DNA of 52,284 bases from Patescibacteria group bacterium (GCA_042571305.1 JBHPHS010000003.1:1-52284); one strand, 5' to 3'. Positions 35,547 to 51,342 are shown, counted from the first letter of the stretch. Notes: generated by a model from the sequence alone, not told the origin. Numbers and translations: made by a program.

Positions 35547-35810
35547 TCCCCGGTAGCTCAGCGGTAGAGCAGGAAGCTGTGTTAGCAGCTCTTGGTGGAA
35601 ACATCAAGATGAAAAGTGGGTGAATTCAGGGAACGCTCCAATTAGTTTGGAGTAACCGTGAGCCAAGCCCCGATTTTTTCAGGGAAGGTGCAGAGACTAG
35701 GTGATTACACCCTTAGAGCGCCCACCACCTAAAGTTAAAAAAGCTATGGTGATGAGATAGTCCATATAGTAACTTCAAGGTCGTAGGTTCGAATCCTACC
35801 CGGGGAGCCA
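35547..35810 (+). tRNA. tRNA-Asn(GTT), split by an intron (exons 35547-35580 and 35770-35810)
   Basis: Joined exons: TCCCCGG TA GCTC AGCGGTA GAGC A GGAAG CT GT|T AA CTTCA AGGTC GTAGG TTCGAAT CCTAC CCGGGGA G CCA. Confidence 0.93.
35581..35769 (+). ncRNA. Group I intron (189 nt, no ORF) between anticodon positions 35 and 36
   Basis: P1 AGCTGT/GCAGCT with U.G at the splice site; P2 TCTTGGTG-GAAA-CATCAAGA; P AATTCAGGGAA; Q AACCGTGAGC; R CAGAGACTA; S GAGATAGTCC; terminal G at 35769. Confidence 0.92.
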
Positions 35811-35831
35811 GTGGCGCAACAAAAGATGTGG

Positions 35832-36365
35832 TTAAGAATTTGCAAGCCTTTCTAGTTCGGGAATCAAGGTTTCAAATTTTCCATTAATATCAAAGACATA
35901 TGGCCTATCTGGTATAGGGGGAATTCTTGGAGGTGTGCTACCCATCATCGTAAAGTAAAGAATACAGTTATTTTTCAATTCTCTTTCCTCGACACTAAAA
36001 CTTGCATTGAATTTATTTTTTAATTCACGAAAGCCTGTTTTTGTAAATGCTTTCCAGAAAACTTCATCAAATTTTTTCATTACTTCATATTGAGGTTGTG
36101 TTACCCCAAGACTTTCAAGGTAAGGTGTTAAAATAGGACTTTCCAGATAAGATGACGCTTCCCCTTGTTTTCTAAGCAATCTAGCTAGAGACTTTTTATC
36201 CACTGTTTCTTCTCTTGGTGTATTATTATTCTGTGTATATTCTACTATCTCCAGTTCATCGGGGCTGATTGGGTGTTTTTTAAGCTTAAGAACTGGCAGC
36301 CAGTCACCACCTCTGTCTTGGTAAAGTAGTTGTGCAGAGTCTGAGCCATTCTCTTTCTTACTCAT
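35832..36365 (-). CDS. Hypothetical protein (first unit after tRNA-Asn)
   Basis: 177-aa ORF, no recognised motif. Confidence 0.65.
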   Translation of the reverse strand: MSKKENGSDSAQLLYQDRGGDWLPVLKLKKHPISPDELEIVEYTQNNNTPREETVDKKSLARLLRKQGEASSYLESPILTPYLESLGVTQPQYEVMKKFDEVFWKAFTKTGFRELKNKFNASFSVEERELKNNCILYFTMMGSTPPRIPPIPDRPYVFDINGKFETLIPELERLANS

Positions 36366-36669
36366 AATTTATTCTGAATTGGTAGTGTATCACAGCAGCT
36401 TGAGAAGTCAACTTAAAACCCTTTACCCTTTATGCTATCAATTTGCTTTCTTCTTATTTAAGCCGCTATTCTCAGGTTCGAAAACTTGATTTGGAAGTGT
36501 TGAGAGAGAAGATGAAATATATTCAGGAGGAATAAGAAGTTACGCAGTAAATTATTAATAATTATATGTAATATTTCAAACGGACAATTGGTTCCTCACA
36601 TAGTCCACAAGAGCGAGCTTTTAGCTTTTGATATATTTACTCCAGGCTATTTGATATAATTCATACCTT

Positions 36670-36900
36670 ATGCCAATGGACCCTAAATATGAAGATTTGG
36701 AACTCGACATTGTTGAAGCTCGAGGTGCAGGACGTGTGTGGCAAGAAATGGCTAAGAACCCTGCCCTTCCAGGTTCAAAAACTGCACAAACTTTCCCTAA
36801 CGGAATCCCCAGAAAAGTATTAGAAAGAAAAATGAAAAAAACAAAAGAAAGAATAAATGCAGAAATTACTCAAGTTACAAGAAGAGAAAGAGAGGGTTAA
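36670..36900 (+). CDS. Small hypothetical protein
   Basis: 76-aa ORF preceded by TGATATAAT. Confidence 0.6.
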   Translation: MPMDPKYEDLELDIVEARGAGRVWQEMAKNPALPGSKTAQTFPNGIPRKVLERKMKKTKERINAEITQVTRREREG

Positions 36901-36950
36901 CTTAATATCTTTGTAGACTCCTCTTTTCCCGTCTGATATTATTCAAATTA

Positions 36951-37601
36951 ATGAAATTACTTTTAACTTCAGCTGGGTTAACAAATAAATCTATAGCTAT
37001 TGCTTTTAACAAACTGGTAGGACTTCCTAAAGAAAAAATCCATATTGCATTTATTCCAACCGCAGCCAATGTTGAAGAAGGAAATAAAGATTGGCTAATT
37101 GATGATTATAATAACCTTAAAAAACAAGGCTACGGATGCATAGATATTGTTGACATTTCTGCAATTTCTCCAAAGGTTTGGAAACCAAGATTAGAAGATG
37201 CAAATGTTTTATTTTTTGGAGGTGGTAACACATTTCACTTAATGCACTGGTTACAAAAATCTGGATTAGAAAAACAATTGTCAGAATTGCTAAAAACTAG
37301 GGTTTATGCAGGTATAAGTGCGGGTGGATGCATCGCTGGTCCAACTATTTACAACTCTGTTCAAAACTTATTTGATGAAAAGTATGAGTTGCGCATTAAA
37401 GAAGGTTTGGGTTTAGTTGATTTTCAATTTGTCCCTCATTTAAACTCTCCTTACTTTAAAAAAATAAGAATAAAATACCTAGAAGAAGCAGCAAAGAAAA
37501 TCACTGAACCAGTATATGTTGTGGACGACAATACTGCTGTAAAAGTTGTTAATGATAAGGTAACCGTAATATCAGAAGGTATTTGGAAAAAATTTAACTA
37601 G
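36951..37601 (+). CDS. Peptidase E / S51 (class I glutamine amidotransferase-like)
   Basis: MKLLLTSAG, AFIPTA, FGGGNTFHL, GISAG, VPHLNS. Confidence 0.9.
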   Translation: MKLLLTSAGLTNKSIAIAFNKLVGLPKEKIHIAFIPTAANVEEGNKDWLIDDYNNLKKQGYGCIDIVDISAISPKVWKPRLEDANVLFFGGGNTFHLMHWLQKSGLEKQLSELLKTRVYAGISAGGCIAGPTIYNSVQNLFDEKYELRIKEGLGLVDFQFVPHLNSPYFKKIRIKYLEEAAKKITEPVYVVDDNTAVKVVNDKVTVISEGIWKKFN

Positions 37602-37670
37602 GAAATAGTTCCCCGCATAGTCCACAAGAGCTAGCTAGCTTCGGTAATCTATATCAAACCTCAGTAAAAG

Positions 37671-37892
37671 TTACTCTGTAGGGACCACTGTTGTATACAT
37701 GTCTACGTAATTTACGACACACTCCTTTTTACCTCGGCATAGCTTATTCTGGTAAAGTGGGCAAGAAACATATCCTTTTTCTTCATCGACAATAGTTAAC
37801 TCGACAGGGTTTGAGAAGTCTTGTTTAAAATCTATTGATGCCTTACCCCTTTTTACTTTTGTAACAGGCGCACACTCGGTCCTTAATCCCAT
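37671..37892 (-). CDS. Small Cys-containing hypothetical protein
   Basis: 73 aa, 4 Cys (CP.....LC.....C); fills one repeat-bounded unit. Confidence 0.55.
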   Translation of the reverse strand: MGLRTECAPVTKVKRGKASIDFKQDFSNPVELTIVDEEKGYVSCPLYQNKLCRGKKECVVNYVDMYTTVVPTE

Positions 37893-38023
37893 GTACGGAT
37901 TCTAACACCTAAATTATATTTGTCAAAAGCCAACCTTATACAAGTAGTTCCTCACATAGTCCACAAGGGCGAGCTAGAGGTAGTTTGATATATTTATTCT
38001 TCTTGTTTTGATATAATTTCTCT

Positions 38024-38266
38024 GTGAAAGAATTAAAACCTTTTCCACCACAAGGACTAACAACCATAGATTGGTGTAATATTGATGTGGCAAAACCCTG
38101 CCCCTATAAAAGTGGAATAAAGAACTGTGGTATTAAAAAACGATTGTCTGAATTTTCTTTAAAAGGAGGGTCAAGAAAAAAAGAAGCTGAAAGATTGTGG
38201 AATTTGGCTCAGTCTAATCCAAATGTATTCAATGACTTGTGTATAGGGTCGTTTTTTAGGTATTAA
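38024..38266 (+). CDS. Small Cys-containing hypothetical protein
   Basis: 80 aa, 4 Cys; TGATATAAT 6 nt before GTG; fills one unit. Confidence 0.55.
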   Translation: MKELKPFPPQGLTTIDWCNIDVAKPCPYKSGIKNCGIKKRLSEFSLKGGSRKKEAERLWNLAQSNPNVFNDLCIGSFFRY

Positions 38267-38306
38267 CAAACCAGTTCCTTACATAGTCCACAAGGGCGAG
38301 CTAGGT

Positions 38307-38915
38307 TCAATTTTTACTTTTGAAGAGAGGGTGTTTTCCCGGCTTTACTAATGTCCCGCTGGAGTTCGACCATAGAATGGTCTCATCTTTTAATTTAAGA
38401 GATTCCCAAAGTGGGTCATCCGGTGCTGTTAGCTTACTAGTCGTCTCCACCACTTCTCTTAAGGTGGCAGGCAAATTTCCTAATTCATATTGCATTAAAG
38501 ACACACCGGTGAAGAGGGCTGTGGTTGAAGAGATTTTAATGGGTGGTACTAAATCATAATCATGACTACCAAAAATTCCACAAAGTTGTATTACTGCAGT
38601 TTCTTGCTCTTTATTCACCTCAAGTGTACGCCAATGATTACCAGGAGTAAAACCATCAGGGGGTGTGTCAAAGAGGACGGTCTTACTAAGATTTGGAAGC
38701 CCAACCTGGTCTACAATCTCTTTTAAAGAGATGGGTTTTATTCCTGATTCCCTAGCCAACGACAAGTTGAATTCAGTATTTTGATAGGGGTAAATAAGAC
38801 GTATCTTTTCATACACCCTTCTATCCACTTTTACAGAAAAAGGTCCAATAGATATCCTTAATGGTTTTGGCTCGCGTCTGAACCCAAATAATTCAAAAAT
38901 ACTTTCTTTAGACAT
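38307..38915 (-). CDS. Hypothetical protein
   Basis: 202-aa ORF filling one unit; stop 4 nt from the repeat. Confidence 0.7.
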   Translation of the reverse strand: MSKESIFELFGFRREPKPLRISIGPFSVKVDRRVYEKIRLIYPYQNTEFNLSLARESGIKPISLKEIVDQVGLPNLSKTVLFDTPPDGFTPGNHWRTLEVNKEQETAVIQLCGIFGSHDYDLVPPIKISSTTALFTGVSLMQYELGNLPATLREVVETTSKLTAPDDPLWESLKLKDETILWSNSSGTLVKPGKHPLFKSKN

Positions 38916-39107
38916 CTGTGTTTTAAATTGTTGCTCGTACTATAACGGTTATGAAAACATATTTCAACTTTAGCTTGTTTTATTAATATAATAAGTTCGC
39001 AACATAGTCCACAAGAGTGAGCTTAGTGTAACAATATTGTTAAGGTTGTTGGTACATGGGCTTTTTTGGTTTGTTTAGTTTCTCTTTTGTGGTAGTATAC
39101 TAAATTT

Positions 39108-39476
39108 ATGACAGAGCGATTAATAAAAGCCATGTTTGAAGTTGACCCCCGAAAAGCTCCAGTGGCTAGGTTTTATAAGGGACTTGCATGGGCTGTAAAA
39201 AATTGTGGACTAGGTGTTGAGTTGACTGTTCCTGTAACAGATGAGCAGAAGTTATTGCCTTTTGCATCATCTAATCCAAACGTGCGAGTTCGTATACCAG
39301 AAGATGTTGTTAAAAAGATACTTGAATCTGGTGATGTTCAGCAAGAGGTAGCAAAAATTGTTAGAAGGGGTGGTGTAAAACGTGGCCTTGGTGAAATTGG
39401 TGCAGAAGTAGTTTGTTTAGGATTGGCTAAAATTTTAGCCGAAGATGAAGATACTAAGCTGGACTTTCAAATATAG
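39108..39476 (+). CDS. Hypothetical protein
   Basis: 122-aa ORF with TATACT 6 nt upstream. Confidence 0.65.
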   Translation: MTERLIKAMFEVDPRKAPVARFYKGLAWAVKNCGLGVELTVPVTDEQKLLPFASSNPNVRVRIPEDVVKKILESGDVQQEVAKIVRRGGVKRGLGEIGAEVVCLGLAKILAEDEDTKLDFQI

Positions 39477-39625
39477 AATCTTAAACCACAAGAGCGAGCT
39501 GGACTTGTCTTAATCTACTCACTTTGATTAATTTATAACTCTACTGGTATACTTCAATAATGAAACTAGCCGAGAAAGTTGAAGATTAAATAGTCTCGGG
39601 CTTATACTGGTTACATGGAGAAATA

Positions 39626-40366
39626 ATGAAACAAGATTCACCAGAACATGCAAAAAGTTACGAGAGACAAGCGGCTTATTATGATGCGATATATGAAGCT
39701 CAAGGAAAAGATTACAAGAAAGAATCAGTTCAAATTCATGAAGTAATCGGAAAACATAAAATATCAGCAGGAAATAAACTGCTTGATATTGGATGCGGAA
39801 CAGGAGGCCATTTTCCTTTCTTAAAAGAATGGTACTCAGTTGAAGGTCTGGATATTGACCAGCACATGCTTCAGGTGGCAAGGCAAAGACTTCCAGACAT
39901 CACCTTTCATCAGGGTGATATGGTTGACTTTGATTTAAACAAACAGTTTGATGTGGTTACTTGTTTATTTAGTGCTATTGGTTATGCCATGACCATTCCG
40001 AATCTACAGTCTGCAGTTAAGTCTCTTGAACACCACACAAAACCTGGGGGTGTTGTGGTTGTTGAGCCTTGGTTTTCTCCCGAACAGTGGAAAGAAGGCC
40101 GACCCTCTTCTGTTTTTGTTGACAAGCCAGACATGAAATTGGCCCGTATTAATATAAGCGAGAGAAGAGGAAACGTTTCTATTGTGAATTTTCATTTTCT
40201 AGTGGCTACACCAGGTCAAGTTGAACACTTTACTGAGTTGCATGAAATAGGCCTCTTCACAAAAAATGAGTATATGGAGGCTTTTGAGAAAGTAGGCCTG
40301 GAAACAACCTTTGACCCAAAAGGAATTACAGGTAGAGGTCTTTATGTTGGAGTAAAAATATCTTAA
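39626..40366 (+). CDS. Class I SAM-dependent methyltransferase (TylM1/DesVI-like N-methyltransferase group)
   Basis: YYDAIY...KDY..E, LLDIGCGTGGH, GDMVDF, FDVVTCLFSAIGY, PGGVVVVEPWF, GRGLYVG. Confidence 0.9.
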   Translation: MKQDSPEHAKSYERQAAYYDAIYEAQGKDYKKESVQIHEVIGKHKISAGNKLLDIGCGTGGHFPFLKEWYSVEGLDIDQHMLQVARQRLPDITFHQGDMVDFDLNKQFDVVTCLFSAIGYAMTIPNLQSAVKSLEHHTKPGGVVVVEPWFSPEQWKEGRPSSVFVDKPDMKLARINISERRGNVSIVNFHFLVATPGQVEHFTELHEIGLFTKNEYMEAFEKVGLETTFDPKGITGRGLYVGVKIS

Positions 40367-40457
40367 GCTGATAAGAAGTTCCTCACATAGTCCACAAGAG
40401 CGAGCTAAGAGCCTGCGGACTTGCCGTTTGGGGAACAACAGTGATATATTAGAACCC

Positions 40458-40718
40458 ATGGAAAGAGAACTAGAGGCAAAACTCATGTCTTCTGTTGTAA
40501 AAGCACATAATAGACGGGAGGCAATAGCCAAGTTTATTGAAGAAAACACAGACAAATTAACCACAGAGGAGCTAGTAGAAATCACAATGATGGGTATTGA
40601 CCTGGTTGTTGCTGACGCTGTGGAGGACATAGAAAAAACTGGCCTAAGAGTTAGAACGGTCTCACTAAAAGACAATCTTAAAAAGATTTTAGAAATTAGC
40701 AGAGGGAATACTCCTTAA
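40458..40718 (+). CDS. Small hypothetical protein
   Basis: ORF track 40428-40718; ATG at 40458 follows TGATATATT. Confidence 0.6.
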   Translation: MERELEAKLMSSVVKAHNRREAIAKFIEENTDKLTTEELVEITMMGIDLVVADAVEDIEKTGLRVRTVSLKDNLKKILEISRGNTP

Positions 40719-40777
40719 AGTTCTAAATCCATCCCACCCCGCGAGCTCATAGCGTAACAATTTGGTATACTTCAGTT

Positions 40778-41452
40778 ATGAACCTGAGAGGAAAAAACGT
40801 CGTGCTTTTCGGAGCCTCGAGCGGATTGGGAAAATCCCTAGTAAAACTTCTTTCAGTTGAGGAGGTAAATTTAATCCTCCTCTCAAGAGGAATTGGTTTA
40901 ACAAATTTCCCAGACACTGTAAAAATACCTTGTGATATTCGAAAAGAAAACGAAATTGTTGCTGCTTTCAAAAAAATAGATAGTAAATTTGAAAAAATTG
41001 ACCTACTTATAAACTGTGTTGGAATTGGTTTGGTTAAAGATTTAAGAGAAACAGGAGGAAGTGAAATAGACAACGTAATCAATACAAATCTAAAAGGCGC
41101 AATTATTGTGGCACGCGAGGCATATAAAAGAATGTCTCAGAAAAGTTCTGGTTACATTGTAATTATTTCGTCTACTTCTGGTAGAAAAGTAAGAGCTATG
41201 GAAACAGTGTATTGTGCAACAAAGTGGGGATTAAGGGGTTTTACAGGCAGCTTACAGTTGGCTGGTGAGGAGAATGGGGTGAAAGTTACTGGGGTTTATC
41301 CTGGTGGGATGAAGTCTAAGAATTTTTGGTCTATCGTCCCTGGCAAGGATATAAAAGATTACCTCGAACCTGCATTTGTAGCGGAAAAAATTATTAATTT
41401 AGTAAAGGGTAGATATAAAAAAGAACTTGTTATCGAAAGAGCAAGTTCCTAA
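40778..41452 (+). CDS. Short-chain dehydrogenase/reductase
   Basis: GASSGLG, YCATKWG (YxxxK), YPGGM. Confidence 0.93.
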   Translation: MNLRGKNVVLFGASSGLGKSLVKLLSVEEVNLILLSRGIGLTNFPDTVKIPCDIRKENEIVAAFKKIDSKFEKIDLLINCVGIGLVKDLRETGGSEIDNVINTNLKGAIIVAREAYKRMSQKSSGYIVIISSTSGRKVRAMETVYCATKWGLRGFTGSLQLAGEENGVKVTGVYPGGMKSKNFWSIVPGKDIKDYLEPAFVAEKIINLVKGRYKKELVIERASS

Positions 41453-41507
41453 CATAGCCCACAAGAGCAAACTGAGTAACCTTAAGCTAAATCTGTTAAA
41501 ATAATTT

Positions 41508-41852
41508 GTGTTTCAAAAAGTAAGACAATTAACTTCACAAACTGAACCATATTGGTCAATTATTTTTGTTCCTATTTGGCAAGAATTGTTGTTTAGGTAT
41601 GTACCCTATTTTATATATTTAAAGTTAAATAATTTCTGGTTAATAGGTATTATCTCCTCTTTAGTGTTTACATCTATACATTGGTATTTCAAAAAATGGT
41701 TTATTGTCTTTTCCTTCTTTGGAGGTATACTTCTATGGATAATTATTGTTAAGTTTGGTTTGCTACCTACAATCATTATTCATTCAACAATTAACTTGTT
41801 ATTGAATGCTTCTGGGTTAAGAAAAAGGGCTGAAAAAAAGTTCTCTACATAG
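41508..41852 (+). CDS. CPBP/Abi (CAAX-protease-like) intramembrane protein
   Basis: PIWQELLFR, FTSIH, IIIHSTIN. Confidence 0.8.
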   Translation: MFQKVRQLTSQTEPYWSIIFVPIWQELLFRYVPYFIYLKLNNFWLIGIISSLVFTSIHWYFKKWFIVFSFFGGILLWIIIVKFGLLPTIIIHSTINLLLNASGLRKRAEKKFST

Positions 41853-41912
41853 TTTACTAGCCCCTGCCAATTTTTTAATTTCCTTTTATGTGGCTCCTGC
41901 TATAATCTACAT

Positions 41913-42353
41913 ATGGCAATAAAATTTGAGTTTCGTGACATGACTAAAGCCGAGTTTAAACGAGAGCAGGCTGCTTTTGATGAACACGGACAAGGGTTTG
42001 GAAATCCACCAGATAAACAAAAACGTTTTGGGTTTGTTGCAACAGACAAAGGGAAATTTGTAGGCTGCTCAAGCGGGTTGGCTCAAAAGAACAATAATAA
42101 ATATGGCAAATATTTTTATCTAAGTGACCTTTTGGTTGAGAAAGATTACAGGAAACTTGGTTATGGCAAAAAACTTTTAGAATTACTGGAAAACAAAATA
42201 AAACAACTGGGGATTGACTATATTTGGACATGGACTGCAGAGTACGAAGCTAGCACTTTTTATCAGAAACATGGATATCAAGTTTTTACTACATTTGATA
42301 AATATTACCAGTCAGGTGATGCCAGGGTTGGACTTCTTAAGAAGCTGGTGTAA
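41913..42353 (+). CDS. GNAT-family acetyltransferase
   Basis: LLVEKDYRKLGYGKKLL, ASTFYQKHGY. Confidence 0.93.
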   Translation: MAIKFEFRDMTKAEFKREQAAFDEHGQGFGNPPDKQKRFGFVATDKGKFVGCSSGLAQKNNNKYGKYFYLSDLLVEKDYRKLGYGKKLLELLENKIKQLGIDYIWTWTAEYEASTFYQKHGYQVFTTFDKYYQSGDARVGLLKKLV

Positions 42354-44376: not shown

Positions 44377-44922
44377 ATGAAAAAGAAAAGAGGCCCTTGG
44401 GTAGTGGTTGGTACCAAAACCATTTATCAAAATCCATGGATAAAGGTCAGAGAAGACAAGATTATTAGGCCTGATGGTAAAAAGGGAATTTTTGGTGTGG
44501 TTTCAATGGTGCCTGGTGTTTCTGTTTTACCCATGGACGATAAAGGTGATGTTTATTTGACCAAGGAATATCACTATGGTGTGGAAAGAATAACCATTGA
44601 GGCCGTAAGTGGCGGAATTGGCAACAAAGAAACAAAAATTCAGGCTGCAAAACGAGAACTTAAAGAAGAAACTGGTTTAACAGCAAAGAAATGGACAGAT
44701 TTGGGTGTAGTTGACCCCTTTACAACAGTCGTCGTCTCACCTAATTACATGTATCTTGCTCAAGACCTGACCCATCTAAAAAGAAACCCAGAAGGAACAG
44801 AAAAGATAACAGTATTTAAAATTCCCTTTAAAAAAGCAGTGGAATGGGTTATGGAAAATAGAATAACTCACTCGGCTACAACAACTCTAATATTGAAAGT
44901 CAATAATTACCTCAATAATTAA
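44377..44922 (+). CDS. NUDIX hydrolase (ADP-ribose pyrophosphatase-like)
   Basis: YQNPWIKVRED..IRPDG, AAKRELKEETG. Confidence 0.92.
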   Translation: MKKKRGPWVVVGTKTIYQNPWIKVREDKIIRPDGKKGIFGVVSMVPGVSVLPMDDKGDVYLTKEYHYGVERITIEAVSGGIGNKETKIQAAKRELKEETGLTAKKWTDLGVVDPFTTVVVSPNYMYLAQDLTHLKRNPEGTEKITVFKIPFKKAVEWVMENRITHSATTTLILKVNNYLNN

Positions 44923-45090
44923 TAAACAAGTTCCTCATATAGTCCACAAGTGCGAGCTAATTACCCTATAATTTGATTTATCCCCTATTCTTCAGGTATA
45001 ATTGCCTCAATTTTCTAATCAGAAGCTAGTTAATTGCTTTTAGTTTTTGAGAAGAAAAAATAAAAACTTGCACTTTAAAAGGAGGCTAAG

Positions 45091-45474
45091 ATGAAAAAAA
45101 TAGTAAGTATAATTTTATTGGTTGGCATTGGAGGGGGAATAATTTTCCACACTATAGAAAACAAAGTCTATGCAACAGCAGTTTTTCTTACATATGTCTT
45201 CGTTTTGGGTGTAGGAAAAACACTTATTACACGTAGAATAAAAGAACAAAAAATATGGGAGAGATTTTTTTCCAATATGTGGAATGTTCTCAAACTTGAA
45301 CACTTTACCTCAAGCAAGGAATTCTATGACTACATTTATAACGACCTGCCACCAATAAGACAAAGAATACGAACAAGGCATCTGCAAATTTGCCCAATCT
45401 GTAAAGAAAGATTGGAAGAAATTAAGAAATGGATGTCCGATGAAAACGAAAAGTTCAAAATGAAAAAACAATAA
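45091..45474 (+). CDS. Two-TM protein with C-terminal zf-HC2-like motif
   Basis: IRTRHLQICPICKERL (HxxxCxxC). Confidence 0.6.
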   Translation: MKKIVSIILLVGIGGGIIFHTIENKVYATAVFLTYVFVLGVGKTLITRRIKEQKIWERFFSNMWNVLKLEHFTSSKEFYDYIYNDLPPIRQRIRTRHLQICPICKERLEEIKKWMSDENEKFKMKKQ

Positions 45475-45636
45475 AAAGTGCAAGAAAAAAACTCTTTGAA
45501 AGAGAAACACAATTAAGTTATAAAGTGTTTTTCAAGTAGGAGAGTTTTTTATTGGCATAAAAGGTTCCCCACATAGTCCACAAGAGCGAGCTTAGTGTAA
45601 CAAGAAATTTATGCTCCAAAATGATACAATTCAAGC

Positions 45637-46125
45637 ATGTCTGAAAGAACAGATAAATTACTAACAGATGGCTTGTCTGAGGGTTACGCAGGTGTAAAAA
45701 AACCTGAAAATATTCAAAGGTCTGGATTTCCAGGAAAAGCCAATGACTATATAAATTCAGAAGGAGGTCACTATCATGATGAATGGTTTGCTGATGATAG
45801 TGGTGGAGGACAGGAACTAGTAAAAGAAGGGGAAGAACAATTTACTAGACTCTATGGCGGTGGTGTAATTCCAGTTGAAGAACTACAAAAGTTAGGTCTT
45901 ACAACAAAAGATGTTATCTTTCGTTTAATAACAAGCGTAAATGAACTCAAGGAAAAAACTAGACTATATGAACCTTGTTCACTAGAACTTCCAGATGGAT
46001 GGAATTACAAGTATGAAATTATCAAAAAAAGTAAAGAAGTCCCCCTAACTGTTGGTTATGAATCAATTGAATTTAATGGCAGGGAGGTTTTTGCTCACGC
46101 CCACATACTTTCCCCAATAAAATAA
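45637..46125 (+). CDS. DUF5680-like hypothetical protein
   Basis: GYAG, YHDEWF..GGGQELV, LYGGG, GYESIEFNGREVF. Confidence 0.6.
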   Translation: MSERTDKLLTDGLSEGYAGVKKPENIQRSGFPGKANDYINSEGGHYHDEWFADDSGGGQELVKEGEEQFTRLYGGGVIPVEELQKLGLTTKDVIFRLITSVNELKEKTRLYEPCSLELPDGWNYKYEIIKKSKEVPLTVGYESIEFNGREVFAHAHILSPIK

Positions 46126-46196
46126 GTCTCGCATAGTCCACAAGTGCGAGCTAGCTGTTTCATTAACTTCAGTTTTTGTTATAATTCCAGAAAACT

Positions 46197-46496
46197 ATGG
46201 TAGAAAAGGAACAACCGTTGCATCCAATACAAGAAAGAGTGAGGGAGCTTTACAAGCACAACGGTTGGGATACCGACCCAACACTGCTTCTTCTAGCTAT
46301 GCAAGAAGAATTAGGCGAGTTAGCGGCTCGCTGGTTAGCGGAGCACCCAGGATACGAAAAATCTATTAAAGATACGGACCCAATACCTGAAGAGGTAGGT
46401 GATTTAGTTCACCTGGTTTTGGCTTTTTGTAACACCCAAGGAATTAACTTTGAGGAGTGTGTGGATGCGACGATTAAAAAAAGAAGAAAAAAGTAA
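46197..46496 (+). CDS. MazG-like nucleotide pyrophosphohydrolase
   Basis: EELGELA...EEVGDL, CNTQGINFE. Confidence 0.88.
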   Translation: MVEKEQPLHPIQERVRELYKHNGWDTDPTLLLLAMQEELGELAARWLAEHPGYEKSIKDTDPIPEEVGDLVHLVLAFCNTQGINFEECVDATIKKRRKK

Positions 46497-46618
46497 GTTT
46501 TCCTCTAAACCCAAAACAAGTTCCTCACATAGTCCACAAGAGCGAGCCCTTAGCGTAACAGAAATGTAGTTAACAAGGGCATGTGGAATACCCAAATGAT
46601 ATAATTCCTTGATTTACC

Positions 46619-47182
46619 ATGGAAAGGTTACTGGACAGTATTGAGTTTGACCAGGAAAAAATTGAAAATAAAGCTAATGGGATTGCCAAAAAAATTAGTG
46701 AACTCAAAACTTCCAATAAACAATACACGCTTTTTCTTTATGACTTCAGTTTTGGAGGGAGCGATGAAGTATGGTGTCGTCCTTATTTAGATGATGTTAA
46801 AGACCATCATGATAGAGTAATTATTCAAGATTTACATATTGATTCAAGTATGCCTTTGTATGAACAGGAAGAAAAGGTTATTAATACTCTAAAAAAGGCA
46901 TTGAAGGTTAATGAGAAAAAGACGCCCCACTATGCAGAATTCGATACACTTGGTATGGGATTAAAATGGGACGGCCATGATTTGTACGAAATTCATAATG
47001 TATGGAAAACTAAGCTTTCAGGCGTATACTGGCACTTTATTGAGATAGGAAACATCTATGGTGCTCCAAATATTAATGCTATTACAGTAAACGAGGATTA
47101 TAGCAGGGAAGTGAACAAGCCTATTATAGATATTATTCGAAACGCAAAGTTATTTACTCTACGTCAAATACTAAAACCGTGA
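46619..47182 (+). CDS. Hypothetical protein
   Basis: 187-aa ORF filling one unit, TGATATAAT upstream. Confidence 0.7.
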   Translation: MERLLDSIEFDQEKIENKANGIAKKISELKTSNKQYTLFLYDFSFGGSDEVWCRPYLDDVKDHHDRVIIQDLHIDSSMPLYEQEEKVINTLKKALKVNEKKTPHYAEFDTLGMGLKWDGHDLYEIHNVWKTKLSGVYWHFIEIGNIYGAPNINAITVNEDYSREVNKPIIDIIRNAKLFTLRQILKP

Positions 47183-47386
47183 ATAAAGCTTCTCACATAA
47201 TCCACAAGAGCGAGCTAGGTGAAACTTAATATACCCAAGTTAGCCTTGTCTAGAACGCCAACAGAAACTAGCCTTAAATCGCCTCTAATAAAATTCCTAA
47301 GTTGTAAGTAAATAAAATTGTAAAAGCCCAGTTTAGTGGTTTTTTTGATTTGTGGTAAGATTGAACAAAGGAGGGGGTGGAGCGAA

Positions 47387-47560
47387 ATGGGCGGTTATGC
47401 AGTTGGTTTTGTTGTTGGTATTGCTTGTGGTTTTGCCATTGGACGAAAACAGAAACCTTGGTCGGAATTAACTGATATACAGAAAAAGATTATAGTTGGG
47501 ATTACAGTTCTCCTTGTGATATTAGTTTTACTTACGACATTTGGCGTTATCTTTTATTAA
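47387..47560 (+). CDS. Small two-TM membrane protein
   Basis: ATG at 47387 after AGGAGG/GGAG; GRKQKPWSELT between two TMs. Confidence 0.65.
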   Translation: MGGYAVGFVVGIACGFAIGRKQKPWSELTDIQKKIIVGITVLLVILVLLTTFGVIFY

Positions 47561-47642
47561 AACGGATTTCAATTAGTAGCTAAGGTTAGGCAAGGCTTTA
47601 CTCATGCTATTTTCTCTCTTGATTCCTGTACTAACTTAAAAT

Positions 47643-47687
47643 CTTCAAAAAACTGTACTAAATCGTTCGAACCCAGTTAGAATATAA
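47643..47687. repeat. Second repeat family, copy 2
   Basis: CTTCAAAAAACTGTACTAAATCGTTCGAACCCAGTTAGAATATAA. Confidence 0.85.
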
Positions 47688-47744
47688 GCTTCGAAGCCTG
47701 TTTTTTTATTGCCGAAAATATGTTTGATGTAGTAGTAACTATTT

Positions 47745-48965
47745 TTACTTACTTGCGAAAAATTCTTTAACCAAAGGGTAGGCAGCCGTATCATAAATCT
47801 TCCCAGCCCCCAACAAACTATGAACTGTAAATCCAACTGCACTATTGCCATATTTGTCAAAAGCTGTTAGTCCCACCTTGTAAAGTTCTTCTATTGAATA
47901 ATCTGTTTTTACCTCACCAAACATTTGCATTTGATCACTTGCATTATTAACCATAAACTCCGCCCCTATCCACGGAATCCCATATTCTTTGGACATCTTT
48001 CTCGCCTGTACGCTAGATAGTTGCACATCTCTAGTAACTTGTTCTGGACTAGGAGCACGGCCACAAGCAGTAACTCCAAATATATCAGCATTGACCAGCG
48101 ATACACCTTCATAATTACTCCAATTGCTAAATCCTCCCATTTTATACATCACCTTGCCTGAGTATAGTTTTCTAATTTGAGGCACCACTCTCGCATAAAA
48201 GGCATTCATTACTTCCCGCGTTTTTTCTACTGGATAATTATTGGAGTCCATAATCGCTTCTATCTGATTAACCGGCACAAAGTAATCAACATTATATTTT
48301 TCAGCTATTGGAGCTAGCTCTAAAGAAACCGCCTCAAGTCTTCTTGACAAATCTTCAGGTGTAATATTATGTTCCTCCATCCCTCCATCCTCAAACTGAA
48401 CATAATCAGGGAACAAAACTACAGATAAGCCTTGCTGTTTAGCCAATAAAATATTATGAACCAAAGCCCGTTTTGATTTATCTTGACTGTAATCTCTTGG
48501 TTTATCATAGCCCAAATACCACAGCTTCAGTTCTCCCTCCCTAAGCCAATAATTAGCATGAATAAATTGTGTGTTCACTCCCAAGTCAGCCAGTACATCA
48601 GAAAAATACAATACTTCAATCAAATTCGGTAAAGTTCCATAAGTTTGTGTAGCTTTTATATAAGTGGGATATTTTCTTGTTAGCGATTCATTCATTTTGT
48701 CTAACTTTTTCCAACTAGGAACCTTATAATCAAGTTTTACAAAAGTCTCATGGTCATTATTATCTACATTTTCCGAAATCCAGGCTTTCCTGGCTTCAGG
48801 ATCTTCTGGTGGGGGGCCAACAGTATTTGCCAAAAAACTACCAGGCAGATCCCCTGGTCCAAATAAAAAATTTCCACCAACTAAAATAACCACTCCAATC
48901 AAAATAACAACAACAATCAGCCCTAAATGAACAAAACCTTTTTTATTAGCAGTATTTTTAACCAC
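47745..48965 (-). CDS. Membrane-anchored glycoside-hydrolase-like (TIM barrel) protein
   Basis: KGF..L N-terminal TM; LGVNT, AKQQGLSVVLFP, AEKYNVDYFVPVNQIE, IRKLYSGKV, PWIGAEF resemble clan-A/GH113-like folds. Confidence 0.55.
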   Translation of the reverse strand: MVKNTANKKGFVHLGLIVVVILIGVVILVGGNFLFGPGDLPGSFLANTVGPPPEDPEARKAWISENVDNNDHETFVKLDYKVPSWKKLDKMNESLTRKYPTYIKATQTYGTLPNLIEVLYFSDVLADLGVNTQFIHANYWLREGELKLWYLGYDKPRDYSQDKSKRALVHNILLAKQQGLSVVLFPDYVQFEDGGMEEHNITPEDLSRRLEAVSLELAPIAEKYNVDYFVPVNQIEAIMDSNNYPVEKTREVMNAFYARVVPQIRKLYSGKVMYKMGGFSNWSNYEGVSLVNADIFGVTACGRAPSPEQVTRDVQLSSVQARKMSKEYGIPWIGAEFMVNNASDQMQMFGEVKTDYSIEELYKVGLTAFDKYGNSAVGFTVHSLLGAGKIYDTAAYPLVKEFFASK

Positions 48966-49050
48966 TTTACTAACTCAGTATATGAATATTTATTTATCTT
49001 TGTAAAGTATCATTACTTTTAATATATTAAACATAGCCGTCTATTCGGTT

Positions 49051-50454
49051 ATGTTATATTGTGGAGTTATAATGTCCCATATGAGGATTGGCAGATTTGA
49101 CGGGAAGAAAATATTAATAATTCACTTTAGGGTGGGTCGAACAGACGGGGTCTCCATTGAAATTGCCTCCTGGAAAAAGATTCTTGAGGGGTTAGGCGCG
49201 GAAGTCAAGCTTTGTTCAGGCTCCGTAAACAGTGGTGCTGATTTTGTTATTGATGACCTTGAGCAGCAATTAAATGTCAAGATTTTTGATTTGGATGAGA
49301 ATTCTTTTGGTGGTTTTAAAACCTACAATGAGGAAACGTTTACAAAAACCCTTTTGGAAGAACAGCTTGTTTTGGAAGAGGGGTTTTCCATGGTTTTTGA
49401 GTCTTACAAACCGGACCAGTTAATTGTTTCTAATATTTTTTCGGTTGGGGAAAATCTGCCTGCAGCAGGAGCATTAACAAAAGTTCTGGATAAGTTTCAA
49501 ATTCCCACTCTAGCAGTTCACCACGATTTTTATTGGGAAAACCAAAGATACAAAAAATCCTCATCTTATTTGGTTAGCGAACAGTTAAAGAAATACTTTC
49601 CCCCTAAAAGGAGATGGATTAAGCACTGCTGTATTAATACGATTGCTCAGGATGAACTTTGGAGGCGAAAGGGTATTAGAGGAGATGTTCTTTATGATAC
49701 ACAGGATTTTACCAAACCTTCCTGGAAGAAGAATAACCTCAATCATCGTCTGATAGAAAAATTCAAAATTGATGAAAATGATATTTTAGTGCTTCAAGCA
49801 ACCCGCATAGTCAGACGCAAAAACATAGAAATTGCGATCAGCTTTGTTGACGCCCTGACCAAAAAACTTAACTCATTAAGTAGGAAAATAACTCTTTATG
49901 ACAATCGAAGGTTTGTGCCAAAAAAACAACAGGCGGCTCTCATAATTGCAGGATATGCAGAAGAGCGGGACAAGAAATACCTTGAGCAGCTTAAAAAATA
50001 CGCTACTGATAAAAAAGTTAAGGTATATTTCATTGGTGATTCCATTAAAACACAAAGTAAGGGCAATGGAGCTAAATTTAGTCTTTGGGATATTTATCCT
50101 TATGCGGATTTAATTACATATCCTAGTGAGCATGAGGGTTTTGGAAACCAATTTTTAGAGGCCACTTTTGCTAAAAAGCCTGTTGTTATCTTCGAGTACC
50201 CAGTTTTTGTTAAAGACATTAAACCTAAAGGTTTTGAAGTAGTTAGTTTTGGGCGAAAGGTTTCCTATAAATCGGATTCGGGAATGGCCATGATTCCTCA
50301 AGAAGTTTTGCAGGGAGCGGTTGAACAGTCTCTAGAGGTTTTGACCAATAGTAGAAAACATTATAAATTGGTTAACAATAATTTTATTATTGGAAGACTG
50401 AATTTTTCCCACGAAAATACCTGTAAGAAATTTATGTCTCTTTTAGATTTTTAG
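49051..50454 (+). CDS. GT4-family glycosyltransferase (mannosylglucosylglycerate-synthase-like)
   Basis: GRTDGVSIE, HHDFYWE, LQATRIVRRKNIE, TYPSEHEGFGNQFLE. Confidence 0.85.
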   Translation: MLYCGVIMSHMRIGRFDGKKILIIHFRVGRTDGVSIEIASWKKILEGLGAEVKLCSGSVNSGADFVIDDLEQQLNVKIFDLDENSFGGFKTYNEETFTKTLLEEQLVLEEGFSMVFESYKPDQLIVSNIFSVGENLPAAGALTKVLDKFQIPTLAVHHDFYWENQRYKKSSSYLVSEQLKKYFPPKRRWIKHCCINTIAQDELWRRKGIRGDVLYDTQDFTKPSWKKNNLNHRLIEKFKIDENDILVLQATRIVRRKNIEIAISFVDALTKKLNSLSRKITLYDNRRFVPKKQQAALIIAGYAEERDKKYLEQLKKYATDKKVKVYFIGDSIKTQSKGNGAKFSLWDIYPYADLITYPSEHEGFGNQFLEATFAKKPVVIFEYPVFVKDIKPKGFEVVSFGRKVSYKSDSGMAMIPQEVLQGAVEQSLEVLTNSRKHYKLVNNNFIIGRLNFSHENTCKKFMSLLDF

Positions 50455-50486
50455 GCCATGCCTCGGTCTTGTTAGTAACTTTCCAG

Positions 50487-51014
50487 TTAGTAATTAATAC
50501 TAGGATTTCCCTTCATGGCATCTAAATCCACGAGGTTAACTTCGGCTGGTACGTCAAACTCTGCATCCGTAACTGCTGTTGGAAGACAGGTGTAACCACC
50601 AGGAACACTTCCTTCAGCTTGTTCCCACAGATCATAAGTTTCCTCTTCAAAGCAAGTTTTCATACCTTGGTTATCTTTATCCGACCAGGTATACATGCAG
50701 TTATCCTTCATAATCACAGTTCCAACCTCTCCATCTTGCATTGTAATCTTGCCTTTATACATTTTGCCCTTGACAATCCCTGAGTACTTAGCTCCACCTG
50801 CTTCGTAAGTACATTTCATAGGAACCCCCAACGCAACAGCTGCCTTAAGAGATCCTGTAAATGGATTGCTTTCGGAGACTTTTTGAGTCAAACTATCTAC
50901 TCCTGAACCACCACTTCCCTTTAGAAAAAACCAAACCGCTCCCGCGGCTGCTATAACCAAAATGATGACAATTAATTGTTTTCCTTTCACATTAATCACC
51001 CCCTCCGCATACAT
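50487..51014 (-). CDS. Membrane-anchored hypothetical protein
   Basis: N-terminal TM; GVPMKCTY, CMYTW, GMKTC, EFDVP. Confidence 0.7.
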   Translation of the reverse strand: MYAEGVINVKGKQLIVIILVIAAAGAVWFFLKGSGGSGVDSLTQKVSESNPFTGSLKAAVALGVPMKCTYEAGGAKYSGIVKGKMYKGKITMQDGEVGTVIMKDNCMYTWSDKDNQGMKTCFEEETYDLWEQAEGSVPGGYTCLPTAVTDAEFDVPAEVNLVDLDAMKGNPSINY

Positions 51015-51118
51015 AATAGTATTTAAATGATTCAGTTTGCAACAGCGGCATGGGTTTCTGGAAAGTAAGTTCTGAAACCGTCCTTATAAGCGAGCTAGGT
51101 TTAAAGTATAATTGTTGT

Positions 51119-51280
51119 ATGAGAAAGGGTTTGATTATACTCCTAATCTTGTTGGTCATTTGGTTGTTTGTAAGGTTTGTAATAGGTGGATCTGAGGACG
51201 ATTGGATTTGTGTGGAAGGAAAATGGATAAAACACGGGCAGCCCACAGCTCTAATGCCAGAGGAAGAGTGTGATAATTAG
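51119..51280 (+). CDS. Small membrane-anchored protein
   Basis: ATG 51119, 6 nt after TATAAT; TM then EDDWICVEGKWIKHGQP. Confidence 0.65.
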   Translation: MRKGLIILLILLVIWLFVRFVIGGSEDDWICVEGKWIKHGQPTALMPEEECDN

Positions 51281-51342
51281 AACCTAGGAAGGAATGACAC
51301 AGTTTCTAACTTCGTCTAGTGCGGGAACCGAATCGCTTGTGT

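What the first reader, a model, noticed from the sequence alone, without database searches (positions are those of the whole stretch)
35547..51330. tRNA-anchored, integrase-less gene-cassette array delimited by about 20 copies of a 29-bp direct repeat
Seen: downstream of tRNA-Asn, GTTCCTCACATAGTCCACAAGAGCGAGCT recurs in one orientation (15 near-full, 1 half, 4 divergent copies; first 28 nt exact at 36591, 40378, 42358, 43265, 46520), every 0.3-1.0 kb up to 47.2 kb. Almost every interval holds exactly one unrelated gene, in either orientation. Stops of + genes usually fall within about 11 nt of the next repeat, or inside it. I saw no copy in the first 35 kb. Known: cargo of this kind (GNAT, NUDIX, methyltransferase, nucleotidyltransferase, SDR, MazG, peptidase E, ORFans) is typical of integron cassettes, but attC sites are longer and have RYYYAAC...GTTRRRY ends, which these lack. 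Inference: an integron-analogous gene-capture platform in a CPR bacterium, built by serial site-specific insertion of single-gene units with a recombinase supplied in trans. I do not know of a description of it, but cannot verify novelty.
Basis: partly seen in the sequence, partly recalled or inferred. Interest (0 to 1): 0.95.

Follow-up and report, generated by a model that had tools for sequence, protein, structure and literature searches.

The report
tRNA-anchored single-gene cassette arrays
Downstream of a tRNA gene this tiny bacterial genome carries a row of single accessory genes, each bounded by the same short recombination-type site whose end copies the end of the tRNA, and related rows occur at other tRNA genes and in many related genomes, so it looks like an integron-like gene-capture system of a different make.

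Summary
The window holds 18 same-strand copies of the repeat (36590-51099). They cut a 15.3-kb insertion downstream of an intron-bearing tRNA-Asn into 18 units of mostly one gene.

The 29-mer is the core of a site of about 45-50 bp. The same genome has two more arrays with a sister site, downstream of tRNA-Trp and tRNA-His. A sequence model of the site finds it in 32 of 124 other genomes of the family, 11 of 143 from other families of the class, and 1 of 143 from other classes. I counted 21 cases lying downstream of a tRNA, all in the tRNA's orientation.

The site has a conserved left part and a right box that copies the last bases of the anchoring tRNA. Congeners differ by presence or absence of arrays, with one break exactly at the tRNA 3' end.

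The sites do not fold and lack attC ends, and no integron integrase was found, so this is not an integron.

Best reading: cassettes inserted serially by site-specific recombination at tRNA 3' ends. The recombinase is unidentified; only Xer-family enzymes are consistently present. Seven literature searches found no description.

The parts
35547..35810 (+). tRNA-Asn(GTT) gene, the anchor of the array; its 3' end at 35810 is the proximal junction
   Evidence: ARAGORN with introns finds a 75-base tRNA at these coordinates. Uninterrupted homologues in 5 relatives are Asn(GTT).
35571..35785 (+). Group I intron in the anticodon loop of the tRNA (not part of the cassette system)
   Evidence: Rfam RF00028, 69.3 bits against a gathering score of 50, full model length.
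35811..36589 (-). Unit 1: ORFan of 177 aa (35832-36365, - strand), directly after the tRNA. The tRNA trailer resembles the sequence that follows the sites at 38994 and 45563.
   Evidence: No homologue in 40 family genomes, so it is cargo and not the system's enzyme.
36590..36619 (+). Site 1 (Asn type)
   Evidence: 0 mismatches to the 29-mer.
36620..37606 (+). Unit 2: 76-aa ORFan and S51 peptidase (36951-37601)
37607..37636 (+). Site 2
   Evidence: 3 mismatches.
37637..37945 (-). Unit 3: 73-aa ORFan (37671-37892, - strand) with a strong promoter-like match upstream
   Evidence: - strand 37926-37899, 11 of 12 positions.
37946..37975 (+). Site 3
   Evidence: 1 mismatch.
37976..38272 (+). Unit 4: 80-aa ORFan (38024-38266)
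38273..38302 (+). Site 4
   Evidence: 2 mismatches.
38303..38993 (-). Unit 5: 202-aa ORFan (38307-38915, - strand)
   Evidence: No PHROG match.
38994..39023 (+). Site 5 (divergent)
39024..39470 (+). Unit 6: 122-aa ORFan (39108-39476); its stop lies inside site 6
39471..39500 (+). Site 6: right half conserved, left half overlapped by the end of the ORF
39501..40376 (+). Unit 7: SAM-dependent methyltransferase (39626-40366)
40377..40406 (+). Site 7
   Evidence: 0 mismatches.
40407..41443 (+). Unit 8: 96-aa ORFan and short-chain dehydrogenase (40778-41452)
41444..41473 (+). Site 8 (divergent)
41474..41838 (+). Unit 9: Rce1-like CAAX protease fragment (41508-41852)
41839..41868 (+). Site 9: a Trp-type site, the type of the arrays on contigs C4 and C15, inside the Asn-type array
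   Evidence: Model R1 scores it 35.2 bits.
41869..42356 (+). Unit 10: GNAT acetyltransferase (41913-42353)
42357..42386 (+). Site 10
   Evidence: 1 mismatch.
42387..43263 (-). Unit 11: nucleotidyltransferase (42389-43168, - strand)
43264..43293 (+). Site 11
   Evidence: 1 mismatch.
43294..44301 (-). Unit 12: 303-aa ORFan (43352-44263, - strand)
44302..44331 (+). Site 12
   Evidence: 1 mismatch.
44332..44928 (+). Unit 13: NUDIX hydrolase (44377-44922)
44929..44958 (+). Site 13
   Evidence: 2 mismatches.
44959..45562 (+). Unit 14: 127-aa ORFan (45091-45474) with a promoter-like match at 44973-45002
45563..45592 (+). Site 14
   Evidence: 1 mismatch.
45593..46122 (+). Unit 15: 162-aa ORFan (45637-46125). 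The same gene is a cassette in arrays of two other genera.
   Evidence: 81% nucleotide identity to L106 6962-7463. Protein cluster with L106 and L108.
46123..46152 (+). Site 15 (left end degenerate)
46153..46518 (+). Unit 16: MazG-type pyrophosphohydrolase (46197-46496)
46519..46548 (+). Site 16
   Evidence: 1 mismatch.
46549..47186 (+). Unit 17: 187-aa ORFan (46619-47182)
47187..47216 (+). Site 17
   Evidence: 3 mismatches.
47217..51067 (.). Distal 3.85-kb unit with four genes and no recognisable internal site: 74-aa ORF, 406-aa protein (-), GT4 glycosyltransferase (+), 175-aa protein (-)
51068..51099 (+). Site 18: degenerate terminal copy with the right half kept; distal end of the insertion
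   Evidence: The conserved flank genes (zinc finger, SET) start at 51343.

Best explanation
The region is an array of small gene cassettes that were inserted one after another by conservative site-specific recombination at the 3' end of tRNA-Asn.

Each cassette carries a site of about 45-50 bp. The left part, about 25 bp, is conserved across a whole bacterial class and is presumably where the recombinase binds. It is followed by a box of about 7 bp that copies the last bases of the target tRNA and is presumably the strand-exchange region. After that comes a semi-conserved stretch that often holds the cassette's own promoter.

Recombination between a cassette's site and the tRNA end, or a site already in the array, inserts the cassette, rebuilds the end of the tRNA and leaves one site per cassette, all in the tRNA's orientation. 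The tRNA end thus plays the part that attI plays in an integron.

Shown: the anatomy, the tRNA anchoring, the match between site and tRNA end, the spread across genera, and array presence or absence between congeners with one break at the tRNA end.

Inferred: that cassettes move singly as circles; that the enzyme is a tyrosine recombinase, which I infer from the 7-bp identity; and that it acts in trans. The enzyme is not identified. The only recombinases consistently present are one or two Xer-family proteins per genome.
For: 1. Three arrays in one genome, each just downstream of a tRNA and in its orientation.
   - Window: tRNA-Asn, 18 sites.
   - Contig C15: tRNA-Trp, 15 sites.
   - Contig C4: tRNA-His, 10 sites.
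   - Within each array every site has the same orientation.
2. The 20-21 nt that follow the left part of the Trp-type site are almost identical to the end of tRNA-Trp plus its trailer.
3. A sequence-only model of 36 sites finds the site family with decreasing frequency at greater distance.
   - 32 of 124 other genomes of the family, 28 of 81 genera counting this genome's own; arrays of 8-18 sites in four genomes.
   - 11 of 143 genomes from other families of the class.
   - 1 of 143 genomes from other classes.
4. 21 arrays or single sites lie downstream of a co-oriented tRNA: Trp 13, Asp 3, His 2, Asn 2, Leu 1.
5. The right box follows the anchor.
   - Trp-anchored sites end like tRNA-Trp. One genome (G072) has a variant tRNA end and its first site has the same variant.
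   - The three Asp-anchored cases lack the T, as tRNA-Asp does.
   - Asn-anchored sites end in the GAGC(C/T)A of tRNA-Asn.
6. An unoccupied tRNA-Trp keeps its encoded CCA and an unrelated trailer, whereas occupied ones continue with cassette sequence straight after the 7-bp box.
7. Congeners differ.
   - A 5.26-kb, 8-site array in G105 is missing from G106. The homology breaks exactly at the tRNA-Leu 3' end and resumes about 85 nt after the last site.
   - In another genus the tRNA-Trp locus is empty, holds one cassette, or holds an 18-nt duplicate of the tRNA end.
   - In a third genus the content between conserved flanks differs.
8. In two relatives the genes that flank this array lie 1-4 kb from tRNA-Asn.
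9. The same cassette gene occurs in arrays of three genera at different anchors. One cassette is shared between two arrays of this genome at 85% identity.
10. Cargo is accessory throughout.
11. The arrays add up to about 34 kb of 595 kb.
Against: - No recombinase gene lies in or next to any of the arrays examined, and no gene family is conserved beside them.
- Nearly every genome of the family has Xer-family recombinases whether or not it has arrays, so presence or absence points to no enzyme.
- No excised circle, junction read or repeat-to-repeat deletion could be looked for.
- The site shows no clear pair of inverted arms around the presumed exchange box, which simple tyrosine-recombinase core sites usually have (reading). 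The tRNA side of the junction does not resemble the site's left part.
- Arrays at tRNA-His and tRNA-Leu carry Trp-type boxes that do not match their anchor. In G105 this is explained by a tRNA-Trp fragment at the start of the array. In this genome's C4 array it is not explained.
- Four arrays in relatives have no tRNA within the 20 kb fetched.
- The 162-aa cassette gene shared with another genus is homologous only over the gene, not over the site or promoter. In a third genus it lies in the opposite orientation. Sites and genes are therefore not permanently linked.
Confidence: 0.72

Rival explanations
1. Decayed accretion: each unit is the remnant of a larger integrase-bearing element (a tRNA-targeting island, tycheposon-like) that inserted at the tRNA and then lost its integrase and most of its genes. 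On this view the arrays are fossils and single cassettes do not move today.
For: - Insertion at tRNA 3' ends with duplicated tRNA-end sequence is the hallmark of such elements (passages of the tycheposon preprint).
- G125 has an 18-nt duplicate of the tRNA-Trp end, and G105 has a T-arm-to-end fragment of tRNA-Trp. Both look like classical att duplications.
- The distal 3.85-kb unit of the window holds four genes.
Against: - About 43 units in this genome and dozens in relatives hold no integrase fragment. PF00589 and PF00239 each hit the whole assembly once, both away from the arrays.
- Unit sizes are tightly small, 327-1067 bp in the window.
- The non-tRNA part of the site is conserved across genera and families, which decay would not preserve.
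- Genes abut the sites within a few bases.
Confidence: 0.13
2. A true integron remnant: a cluster of attC sites lacking an integrase (CALIN), with cassettes moved by an integron integrase elsewhere.
For: - Co-oriented sites separate single accessory genes of the kinds common in integron cassettes.
- Arrays without a nearby integrase are common among integrons (passages of PMC4889954).
Against: - 70 sites folded as single strands average about -2 kcal/mol, with z-scores of +0.4 to +0.5 against shuffles on both strands, so there is no attC hairpin.
- The ends do not fit the attC end motifs quoted in the finding.
- The sites are conserved in sequence across genera, whereas attC sites are conserved in structure.
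- The only tyrosine recombinase found in the assembly scores 121.8 bits against the integron-integrase model, whose cut-off is 265.
- About half of the sites are followed by a -10-like element.
- I did not run IntegronFinder itself.
Confidence: 0.03
3. Not a recombination site: a regulatory, RNA-processing or REP/MITE-like repeat that spreads between genes, or is kept there for expression or termination.
For: - The repeat sits in almost every intergenic gap of the region.
- + strand genes stop at it.
- A promoter-like -10 often follows it.
Against: - Orientation is uniform within each array whatever the gene orientation: 18 of 18, 15 of 15 and 10 of 10.
- It is confined to three accessory-gene arrays downstream of tRNAs and absent beside core genes.
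- None of the 14 terminator-like hairpins in the region coincides with a site, and the sites do not fold.
- The right box copies the anchoring tRNA's end.
- Whole arrays are present or absent between congeners, with one break at the tRNA end.
Confidence: 0.05

Closest known systems
Integrons (IntI, attI, attC cassette arrays; sedentary chromosomal integrons and CALINs)
   Same: - Arrays of mostly single accessory genes, with one co-oriented recombination site per cassette.
- A fixed entry point at one end of the array.
- Sites are very uniform within an array.
- Cargo is of the same kinds: GNAT, NUDIX, methyltransferases, many ORFans.
   Different: - The sites are conserved in sequence, do not fold and lack attC end motifs.
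- The entry point is the 3' end of a tRNA gene, not an attI beside an integrase gene.
- No IntI was found.
- About 30% of the window's cassette genes are on the opposite strand, and many cassettes carry their own promoter.
- The hosts have genomes of about 0.4-1.8 Mb (sizes listed), a size class in which the IntegronFinder survey found no complete integrons (passage read).
tRNA-targeting integrative islands, for example tycheposons of Prochlorococcus (bioRxiv 10.1101/2020.12.28.424599; passages read)
   Same: - Insertion at tRNA genes.
- Repeated insertions push older elements outward.
- Attachment-site copies are scattered through the island.
- Found in small streamlined genomes.
   Different: - Those elements carry their own integrase and often replication genes, and are several kb long.
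- Here the units are 0.3-1 kb, mostly one gene, with no integrase.
- Most of the site is non-tRNA sequence conserved across a class; only about 7 bp are shared with the tRNA.
Accretion arrays of recombinase-less units mobilised in trans (staphylococcal SCC and pseudo-SCC composites; cis-mobilisable elements next to ICEs).
   Same: - Tandem units bounded by short direct repeats at the 3' end of a conserved gene.
- Some units lack a recombinase and depend on one supplied in trans.
   Different: - Those units are large and few.
- Their recombinases are known and are encoded in a neighbouring unit.
- They are not single-gene cassettes in arrays of 10-18.
Xer-dependent modules (dif modules of Acinetobacter plasmids; elements that integrate at dif). 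Recalled from memory.
   Same: - Short sites of about 30 bp bound small gene modules that have no recombinase of their own.
- Housekeeping Xer enzymes act in trans. Xer-family proteins are the only recombinases consistently present here.
   Different: - dif-type sites have two inverted arms around a 6-8-bp centre. These sites show no such symmetry.
- The arrays sit at several tRNA genes, not at the terminus.
- All sites in an array are direct repeats.

Membership tests
Integron / CALIN | attC sites: imperfect palindromes that fold as single strands | tested here: not met
   70 sites of 60 nt, folded with DNA parameters: mean MFE -1.9 (top strand) and -2.4 (bottom strand) kcal/mol, mean z +0.52 and +0.41 against shuffles.
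Integron / CALIN | Conserved inverted end motifs of attC, as quoted in the finding | tested here: not met
   An alignment of 36 sites shows a conserved asymmetric sequence without those ends. IntegronFinder's covariance model was not available.
Integron / CALIN | Integron integrase (tyrosine recombinase with the extra IntI domain) | tested here: not met
   PF00589 hits the assembly once. That protein scores 121.8 bits against TIGR02249, cut-off 265. The assembly is only 66% complete.
Integron / CALIN | Co-oriented sites separating mostly single-gene cassettes | tested here: met
Integron / CALIN | Cassettes mostly promoterless and co-oriented, read from one array promoter | tested here: not met
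   5 of 17 short units have - strand genes. A -10-like element follows 38 of 76 sites within 50 nt, against 25.5% of random windows. An extended -10 follows 14 of 76, against 0.6%. These are sequence signals only.
tRNA-targeting integrative element (tycheposon-like island) | Insertion at a tRNA gene with a duplicated piece of the tRNA at the far junction | tested here: met
   21 anchored cases. The duplicated piece is about 7 nt in most sites, 18 nt in G125, and T-arm to 3' end in G105.
tRNA-targeting integrative element (tycheposon-like island) | The element encodes its own integrase | tested here: not met
   No PF00589 or PF00239 hit in or beside the arrays of G000. No gene family is conserved next to arrays in 17 loci.
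Xer/dif-type module | Site of about 28-30 bp with two inverted 11-bp arms and a 6-8-bp centre | tested here: inconclusive
   No dyad symmetry is seen in the alignment. The real dif of these genomes could not be found for comparison.
Xer/dif-type module | Host Xer recombinases present | tested here: met
   All 125 family genomes have at least one PF00589 hit and most have two. The proteins score best against XerC, XerD and XerA models.
CRISPR array | Short repeats separated by spacers of about 25-70 bp, with no genes between them | tested here: not met
   Spacing is 327-1067 bp, with ORFs in every interval.

The most novel reading that the evidence does not exclude
This is a second cassette-capture system, independent of integrons. 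Bacteria of this class with very small genomes use the 3' ends of tRNA genes as docking sites for single-gene cassettes. Each cassette carries a short, unstructured site whose exchange box is tuned to a particular tRNA. The recombinase is either a co-opted housekeeping Xer-family enzyme or a family not yet recognised. Cassettes circulate between arrays, tRNA loci and genera, giving these reduced genomes a shared pool of accessory genes.
Probability: 0.45. Interest if true: 0.9.

Novelty: new variant of a known kind. Interest (0 to 1): 0.8.

Why it matters
Integrons are the textbook way in which bacteria stockpile single-gene cassettes, and in the survey I read they were not found complete in very small genomes (passage).

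Here a genome of well under 1 Mb devotes about 6% of its assembled DNA to three cassette arrays built on a different site and a different docking point. The same site family recurs in about a quarter of the genomes of its family.

If cassettes really move, two things follow:
- It would explain how these reduced, probably host-dependent bacteria exchange accessory functions without plasmids or obvious mobile elements.
- It would offer a compact site of about 45 bp paired with a tRNA end, whose specificity appears to be set by a 7-bp box. That makes the question of how target choice is encoded directly testable once the enzyme is found.

It also gives a simple sequence model for finding the variable gene pool in metagenome-assembled genomes of this class.

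Tried and rejected
- Exact-pattern scans for the 20-nt core gave 4 single matches in metagenome contigs and 2 in genome contigs. None had further copies nearby, so they are chance-level.
- The Asn-type core was not found in 60 relatives at up to 2 mismatches.
- No 12-mer recurring 4 or more times (apart from two short tandem repeats) was found within the up-to-20-kb stretches fetched around the tRNA-Asn matches of 18 relatives.
- Terminus or dif idea: GC skew in the window follows gene strand and is inconclusive. A search of the genome with a recalled consensus of bacterial dif sites gave only chance-level hits in this AT-rich DNA and was dropped. Three arrays per genome also argue against dif.
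- I considered the 177-aa ORF in the position where intI would be as a hidden recombinase. It has no Pfam or PHROG match and no homologue in 40 family genomes, whereas the site family is widespread. Rejected.
- A 181-aa catalytic-domain-only tyrosine recombinase lies 2.3 kb upstream of one tRNA-less array in G007. In the family-wide scan its only listed look-alikes of similar size are in two genomes that have no site match. Not pursued.
- Large serine recombinases are missing from one array-rich genome, G119, which is 93% complete.
- Genes next to tRNA-less arrays show no recombinase by inspection; I did not run them through a family search.
- Two viral-contig scans with degenerate site patterns gave 0 and 8 hits. 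None of the 8 was supported by the model.
- A generic promoter and terminator scan was not enriched over shuffles.
- I first read the variants with an internal insert as hybrid sites marking the crossover. They are the ordinary site with an insertion of 24-27 nt.
- Literature: seven searches (plus 71 for tycheposons) showed no description of such arrays in the listings. Only titles and abstracts of the listed papers were seen, apart from passages of two papers. Supplements were not seen.

Full report
**What is in the window**

None occurred in 100 shuffles. Repeat families add divergent copies at 38994, 39471, 41444, 46123 and 51068. A looser scan adds a sister-type copy at 41839. That makes 18 co-oriented copies.

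The copies divide 35811-51099 into 17 short units of 327-1067 bp and one distal unit of 3.85 kb. Fifteen of the short units hold one ORF. Five hold genes on the - strand. Eleven of the 13 unit-final + ORFs stop between 14 nt inside and 10 nt before the next copy.

Cargo is S51 peptidase, methyltransferase, SDR, Rce1-like protease, GNAT, nucleotidyltransferase, NUDIX and MazG; the rest are ORFans.

The upstream gene at 35547-35810 is a tRNA interrupted by a group I intron.
- Plain ARAGORN misses it.
- ARAGORN with introns calls Thr(AGT), but with a splice site that leaves the intron ending in T.
- A group I intron should follow a U and end in G (established knowledge). That rule gives anticodon GTT.
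- The uninterrupted homologues in 5 of 5 relatives checked are tRNA-Asn(GTT).

Further upstream lie dnaG and rpoD.

**The region is an insertion**

In two relatives (G024, G020) rpoD and tRNA-Asn are followed within 1-4 kb by a homologue of the zinc-finger gene, and in G024 also of the SET gene. Here those genes start at 51343, which is 15.5 kb from the tRNA. The 177-aa ORF between the tRNA and the first copy has no homologue in 40 family genomes.

**The repeat is part of a larger site, and there are more arrays**

The 20-nt core occurs nowhere else in the 595-kb assembly (16 forward, 0 reverse, control 0). A weaker profile scan turned up related motifs on two other contigs. A pattern for the left part of the repeat then revealed two further arrays with a sister site:
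- Contig C15: 15 copies on the + strand.
- Contig C4: 10 copies on the - strand.

Their cargo is of the same kind: five NUDIX genes, GNAT, methyltransferases, DUF1653, radical SAM, an AEP-like primase, SUKH, and ORFans. No recombinase is among them.

Both arrays begin just downstream of a tRNA gene and run in its direction: tRNA-Trp on C15 and tRNA-His on C4.

Aligned, 36 sites share a conserved asymmetric pattern over about 34 nt. The left 25 nt are common to both types. The next 7-9 nt differ between the types.

**The right box copies the tRNA end**

The last bases of tRNA-Trp plus its trailer are nearly identical (20 of 21) to the right part of the Trp-type site and the sequence that follows it. 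This is the signature of an attachment-site core.

Across genomes the box follows the anchor.
- Trp-anchored sites end like tRNA-Trp. Of the 12 Trp-anchored cases listed, I count 9 with a 7-nt box matching the tRNA's last 7 nt at 6 or 7 positions. One genome, G072, has a variant tRNA end that its first site shares.
- The three Asp-anchored cases lack the T, as tRNA-Asp does.
- The two Asn-anchored cases, this window and a genome of another family, end in the GAGC(C/T)A of tRNA-Asn.

The Trp and Asp boxes differ by only one base, so that part of the covariation is slight. The Asn box is clearly distinct.

An unoccupied tRNA-Trp (G109) keeps its encoded CCA and an unrelated trailer. Occupied ones run into cassette sequence right after the 7-bp box. 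I therefore place the exchange inside that box. An identity of about 7 bp is what tyrosine recombinases need in their overlap region (established knowledge). That the enzyme is of this kind is an inference.

**Spread of the site family**

A sequence-only covariance model of the 36 sites gave the following.

| Sample | Genomes with a match |
|---|---|
| Other genomes of the family | 32 of 124 (28 of 81 genera, counting this genome's own) |
| Other families of the class | 11 of 143 |
| Other classes of the phylum | 1 of 143 |

Four family genomes have arrays of 8-18 sites. The last row also serves as a false-positive control. The model was built from this genome, so its sensitivity falls with distance.

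I counted 21 arrays or single sites that lie downstream of a co-oriented tRNA:

| Anchor tRNA | Cases |
|---|---|
| Trp | 13 |
| Asp | 3 |
| His | 2 |
| Asn | 2 |
| Leu | 1 |

Of 19 match loci with 1.5 kb of flank on each side (most of them the genome's only match), 7 had such a tRNA. Of 10 loci from other families, 3 had one. Four arrays had no tRNA within the 20 kb fetched. One of these starts with a copy of the site that lacks the left part.

**Comparisons within genera**

- G105 and G106. G105 has a 5.26-kb array with 8 sites after tRNA-Leu(TAG). In G106 the flanks are 73-79% identical, the array is missing, and only 48 nt stand in its place. Homology breaks exactly at the tRNA 3' end and resumes about 85 nt after the last site. 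The G105 array opens with a fragment of tRNA-Trp (T-arm to 3' end). This explains why an array at tRNA-Leu carries Trp-type boxes.
- A second genus. The tRNA-Trp locus takes three forms.
  - G008: empty, with 372 nt to the flank.
  - G124: one cassette with its own extended -10 promoter, then a site.
  - G125: an 18-nt duplicate of the tRNA end, 77 nt downstream.
- A third genus. G099 and G100 have 4.2 and 6.3 kb of unrelated content between conserved flanks.

**Cassette sharing**

- The 162-aa ORFan at 45637-46125 is 81% identical in DNA to the first cassette of a tRNA-less array in G007. The homology covers the gene only.
- A protein homologue of the same ORFan is a cassette in G105, in the opposite orientation.
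- A 362-nt unit, a site plus a 108-aa gene, is shared by the C15 and C4 arrays at 85% identity.

**What it is not**

- The sites do not fold. For 70 sites the mean MFE is about -2 kcal/mol and z is +0.4 to +0.5 on both strands.
- They lack the attC end motifs.
- None of the 14 terminator-like hairpins in the region coincides with a site.
- A -10-like hexamer follows 38 of 76 sites within 50 nt, against 25.5% of random windows. An extended -10 follows 14 of 76, against 0.6%. So many cassettes appear to carry their own promoter.

**The enzyme**

The assembly has one PF00589 protein and one large serine recombinase, both on other contigs.
- All 125 family genomes have a PF00589 hit and most have two, with or without arrays.
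- These proteins score best against Xer models and far below the integron-integrase cut-off.
- No gene family is conserved next to arrays in 17 loci.
- One array-rich genome has no serine recombinase.
- No viral contig carries the site.

The recombinase is therefore unidentified. A co-opted Xer-family paralogue and an unassembled or unrecognised enzyme both remain open.

**Comparison with what is known**

The system works like an integron: a docking point, one site per cassette, accessory cargo, and very uniform sites within an array. It fails the tested defining features of integrons (attC fold, end motifs, IntI).

It shares the tRNA target with integrative islands such as tycheposons (passages read). 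However, its units lack integrases and are mostly single genes.

It recalls arrays of recombinase-less units mobilised in trans, such as SCC composites, cis-mobilisable elements and dif modules. Those comparisons are from memory and were not read here.

The seven literature searches listed no description of such arrays. I saw only the listings and passages of two papers.

**Limits**

- No reads could be examined.
- The assembly is 66% complete.
- The organism's name was not verifiable.
- Kin genomes are not independent, so the counts describe the sample and do not test a hypothesis.

**Verdict**

This is a tRNA-docked, integron-like cassette system with a new kind of site, shared across a bacterial class. 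Its recombinase and present-day mobility are still to be shown.

Noticed in passing
window 34836-35513 (+), just upstream of the intron-bearing tRNA-Asn: A 225-aa protein with a weak helix-turn-helix match. It has homologues (48-57% identity) next to tRNA-Asn in G016 and G028, two of the four relatives whose tRNA-Asn also carries the intron. It may be a free-standing homing endonuclease tied to the intron. The motif resemblance is recalled, not tested.
   Followed up: partly
G000 C15 about 2055 and 7342, C4 (- strand) 35229; also C4 (- strand) 36373: Three Trp-type sites carry the same insert of about 27 nt between the left part and the right box. The insert resembles the T-loop and 3' end of tRNA-Lys(CTT) of this genome. 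A fourth site has a different 24-nt insert. The site therefore tolerates a variable middle, and tRNA-end-like pieces seem to be nested in it. Unexplained.
   Followed up: partly
window 41839-41868: One Trp-type site sits inside the otherwise Asn-type array, although the two exchange boxes do not match. I cannot say how it got there: as a two-cassette block, or by another route.
   Followed up: no
L108 (G105) 9073-9570 against window 45637-46125: The same 162-aa cassette gene lies in opposite orientation relative to the sites in two genera. Between this window and G007 only the gene is homologous, not the site or promoter. Genes and sites seem to be combined more than once, which bears on how cassettes are made.
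   Followed up: partly
L106 (G007 C4) 4574-5119 (- strand): A 181-aa tyrosine recombinase consisting of the catalytic domain only lies 2.3 kb upstream of a tRNA-less array, on the opposite strand. Similar 194-aa open frames occur in two genomes (G129, G117) that have no site match.
   Followed up: partly
window 43304-43352 and 47643-47691: A 49-nt direct repeat (86% identity) lies just past the 3' ends of two - strand genes, 43352-44263 and 47745-48965. It may be a shared 3' element.
   Followed up: no
window 29289-29373 (- strand) and 27733-28095 (- strand): Rfam finds a fifth tRNA at 29289-29373 that ARAGORN does not report (38.6 bits). There is also a tmRNA gene at 27733-28095.
   Followed up: no
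L073 (G000 C4) 17781-19262 (- strand): A 493-aa serpin (Pfam E-value 1e-122) is encoded 3 kb from the tRNA cluster that anchors the C4 array.
   Followed up: no
L174 (G125 C26) 6990-7200: tRNA-Trp is followed after 77 nt by an exact 18-nt duplicate of its own 3' end and then by cassette-like sequence. This looks like a classical att duplication around a very short insert.
   Followed up: no
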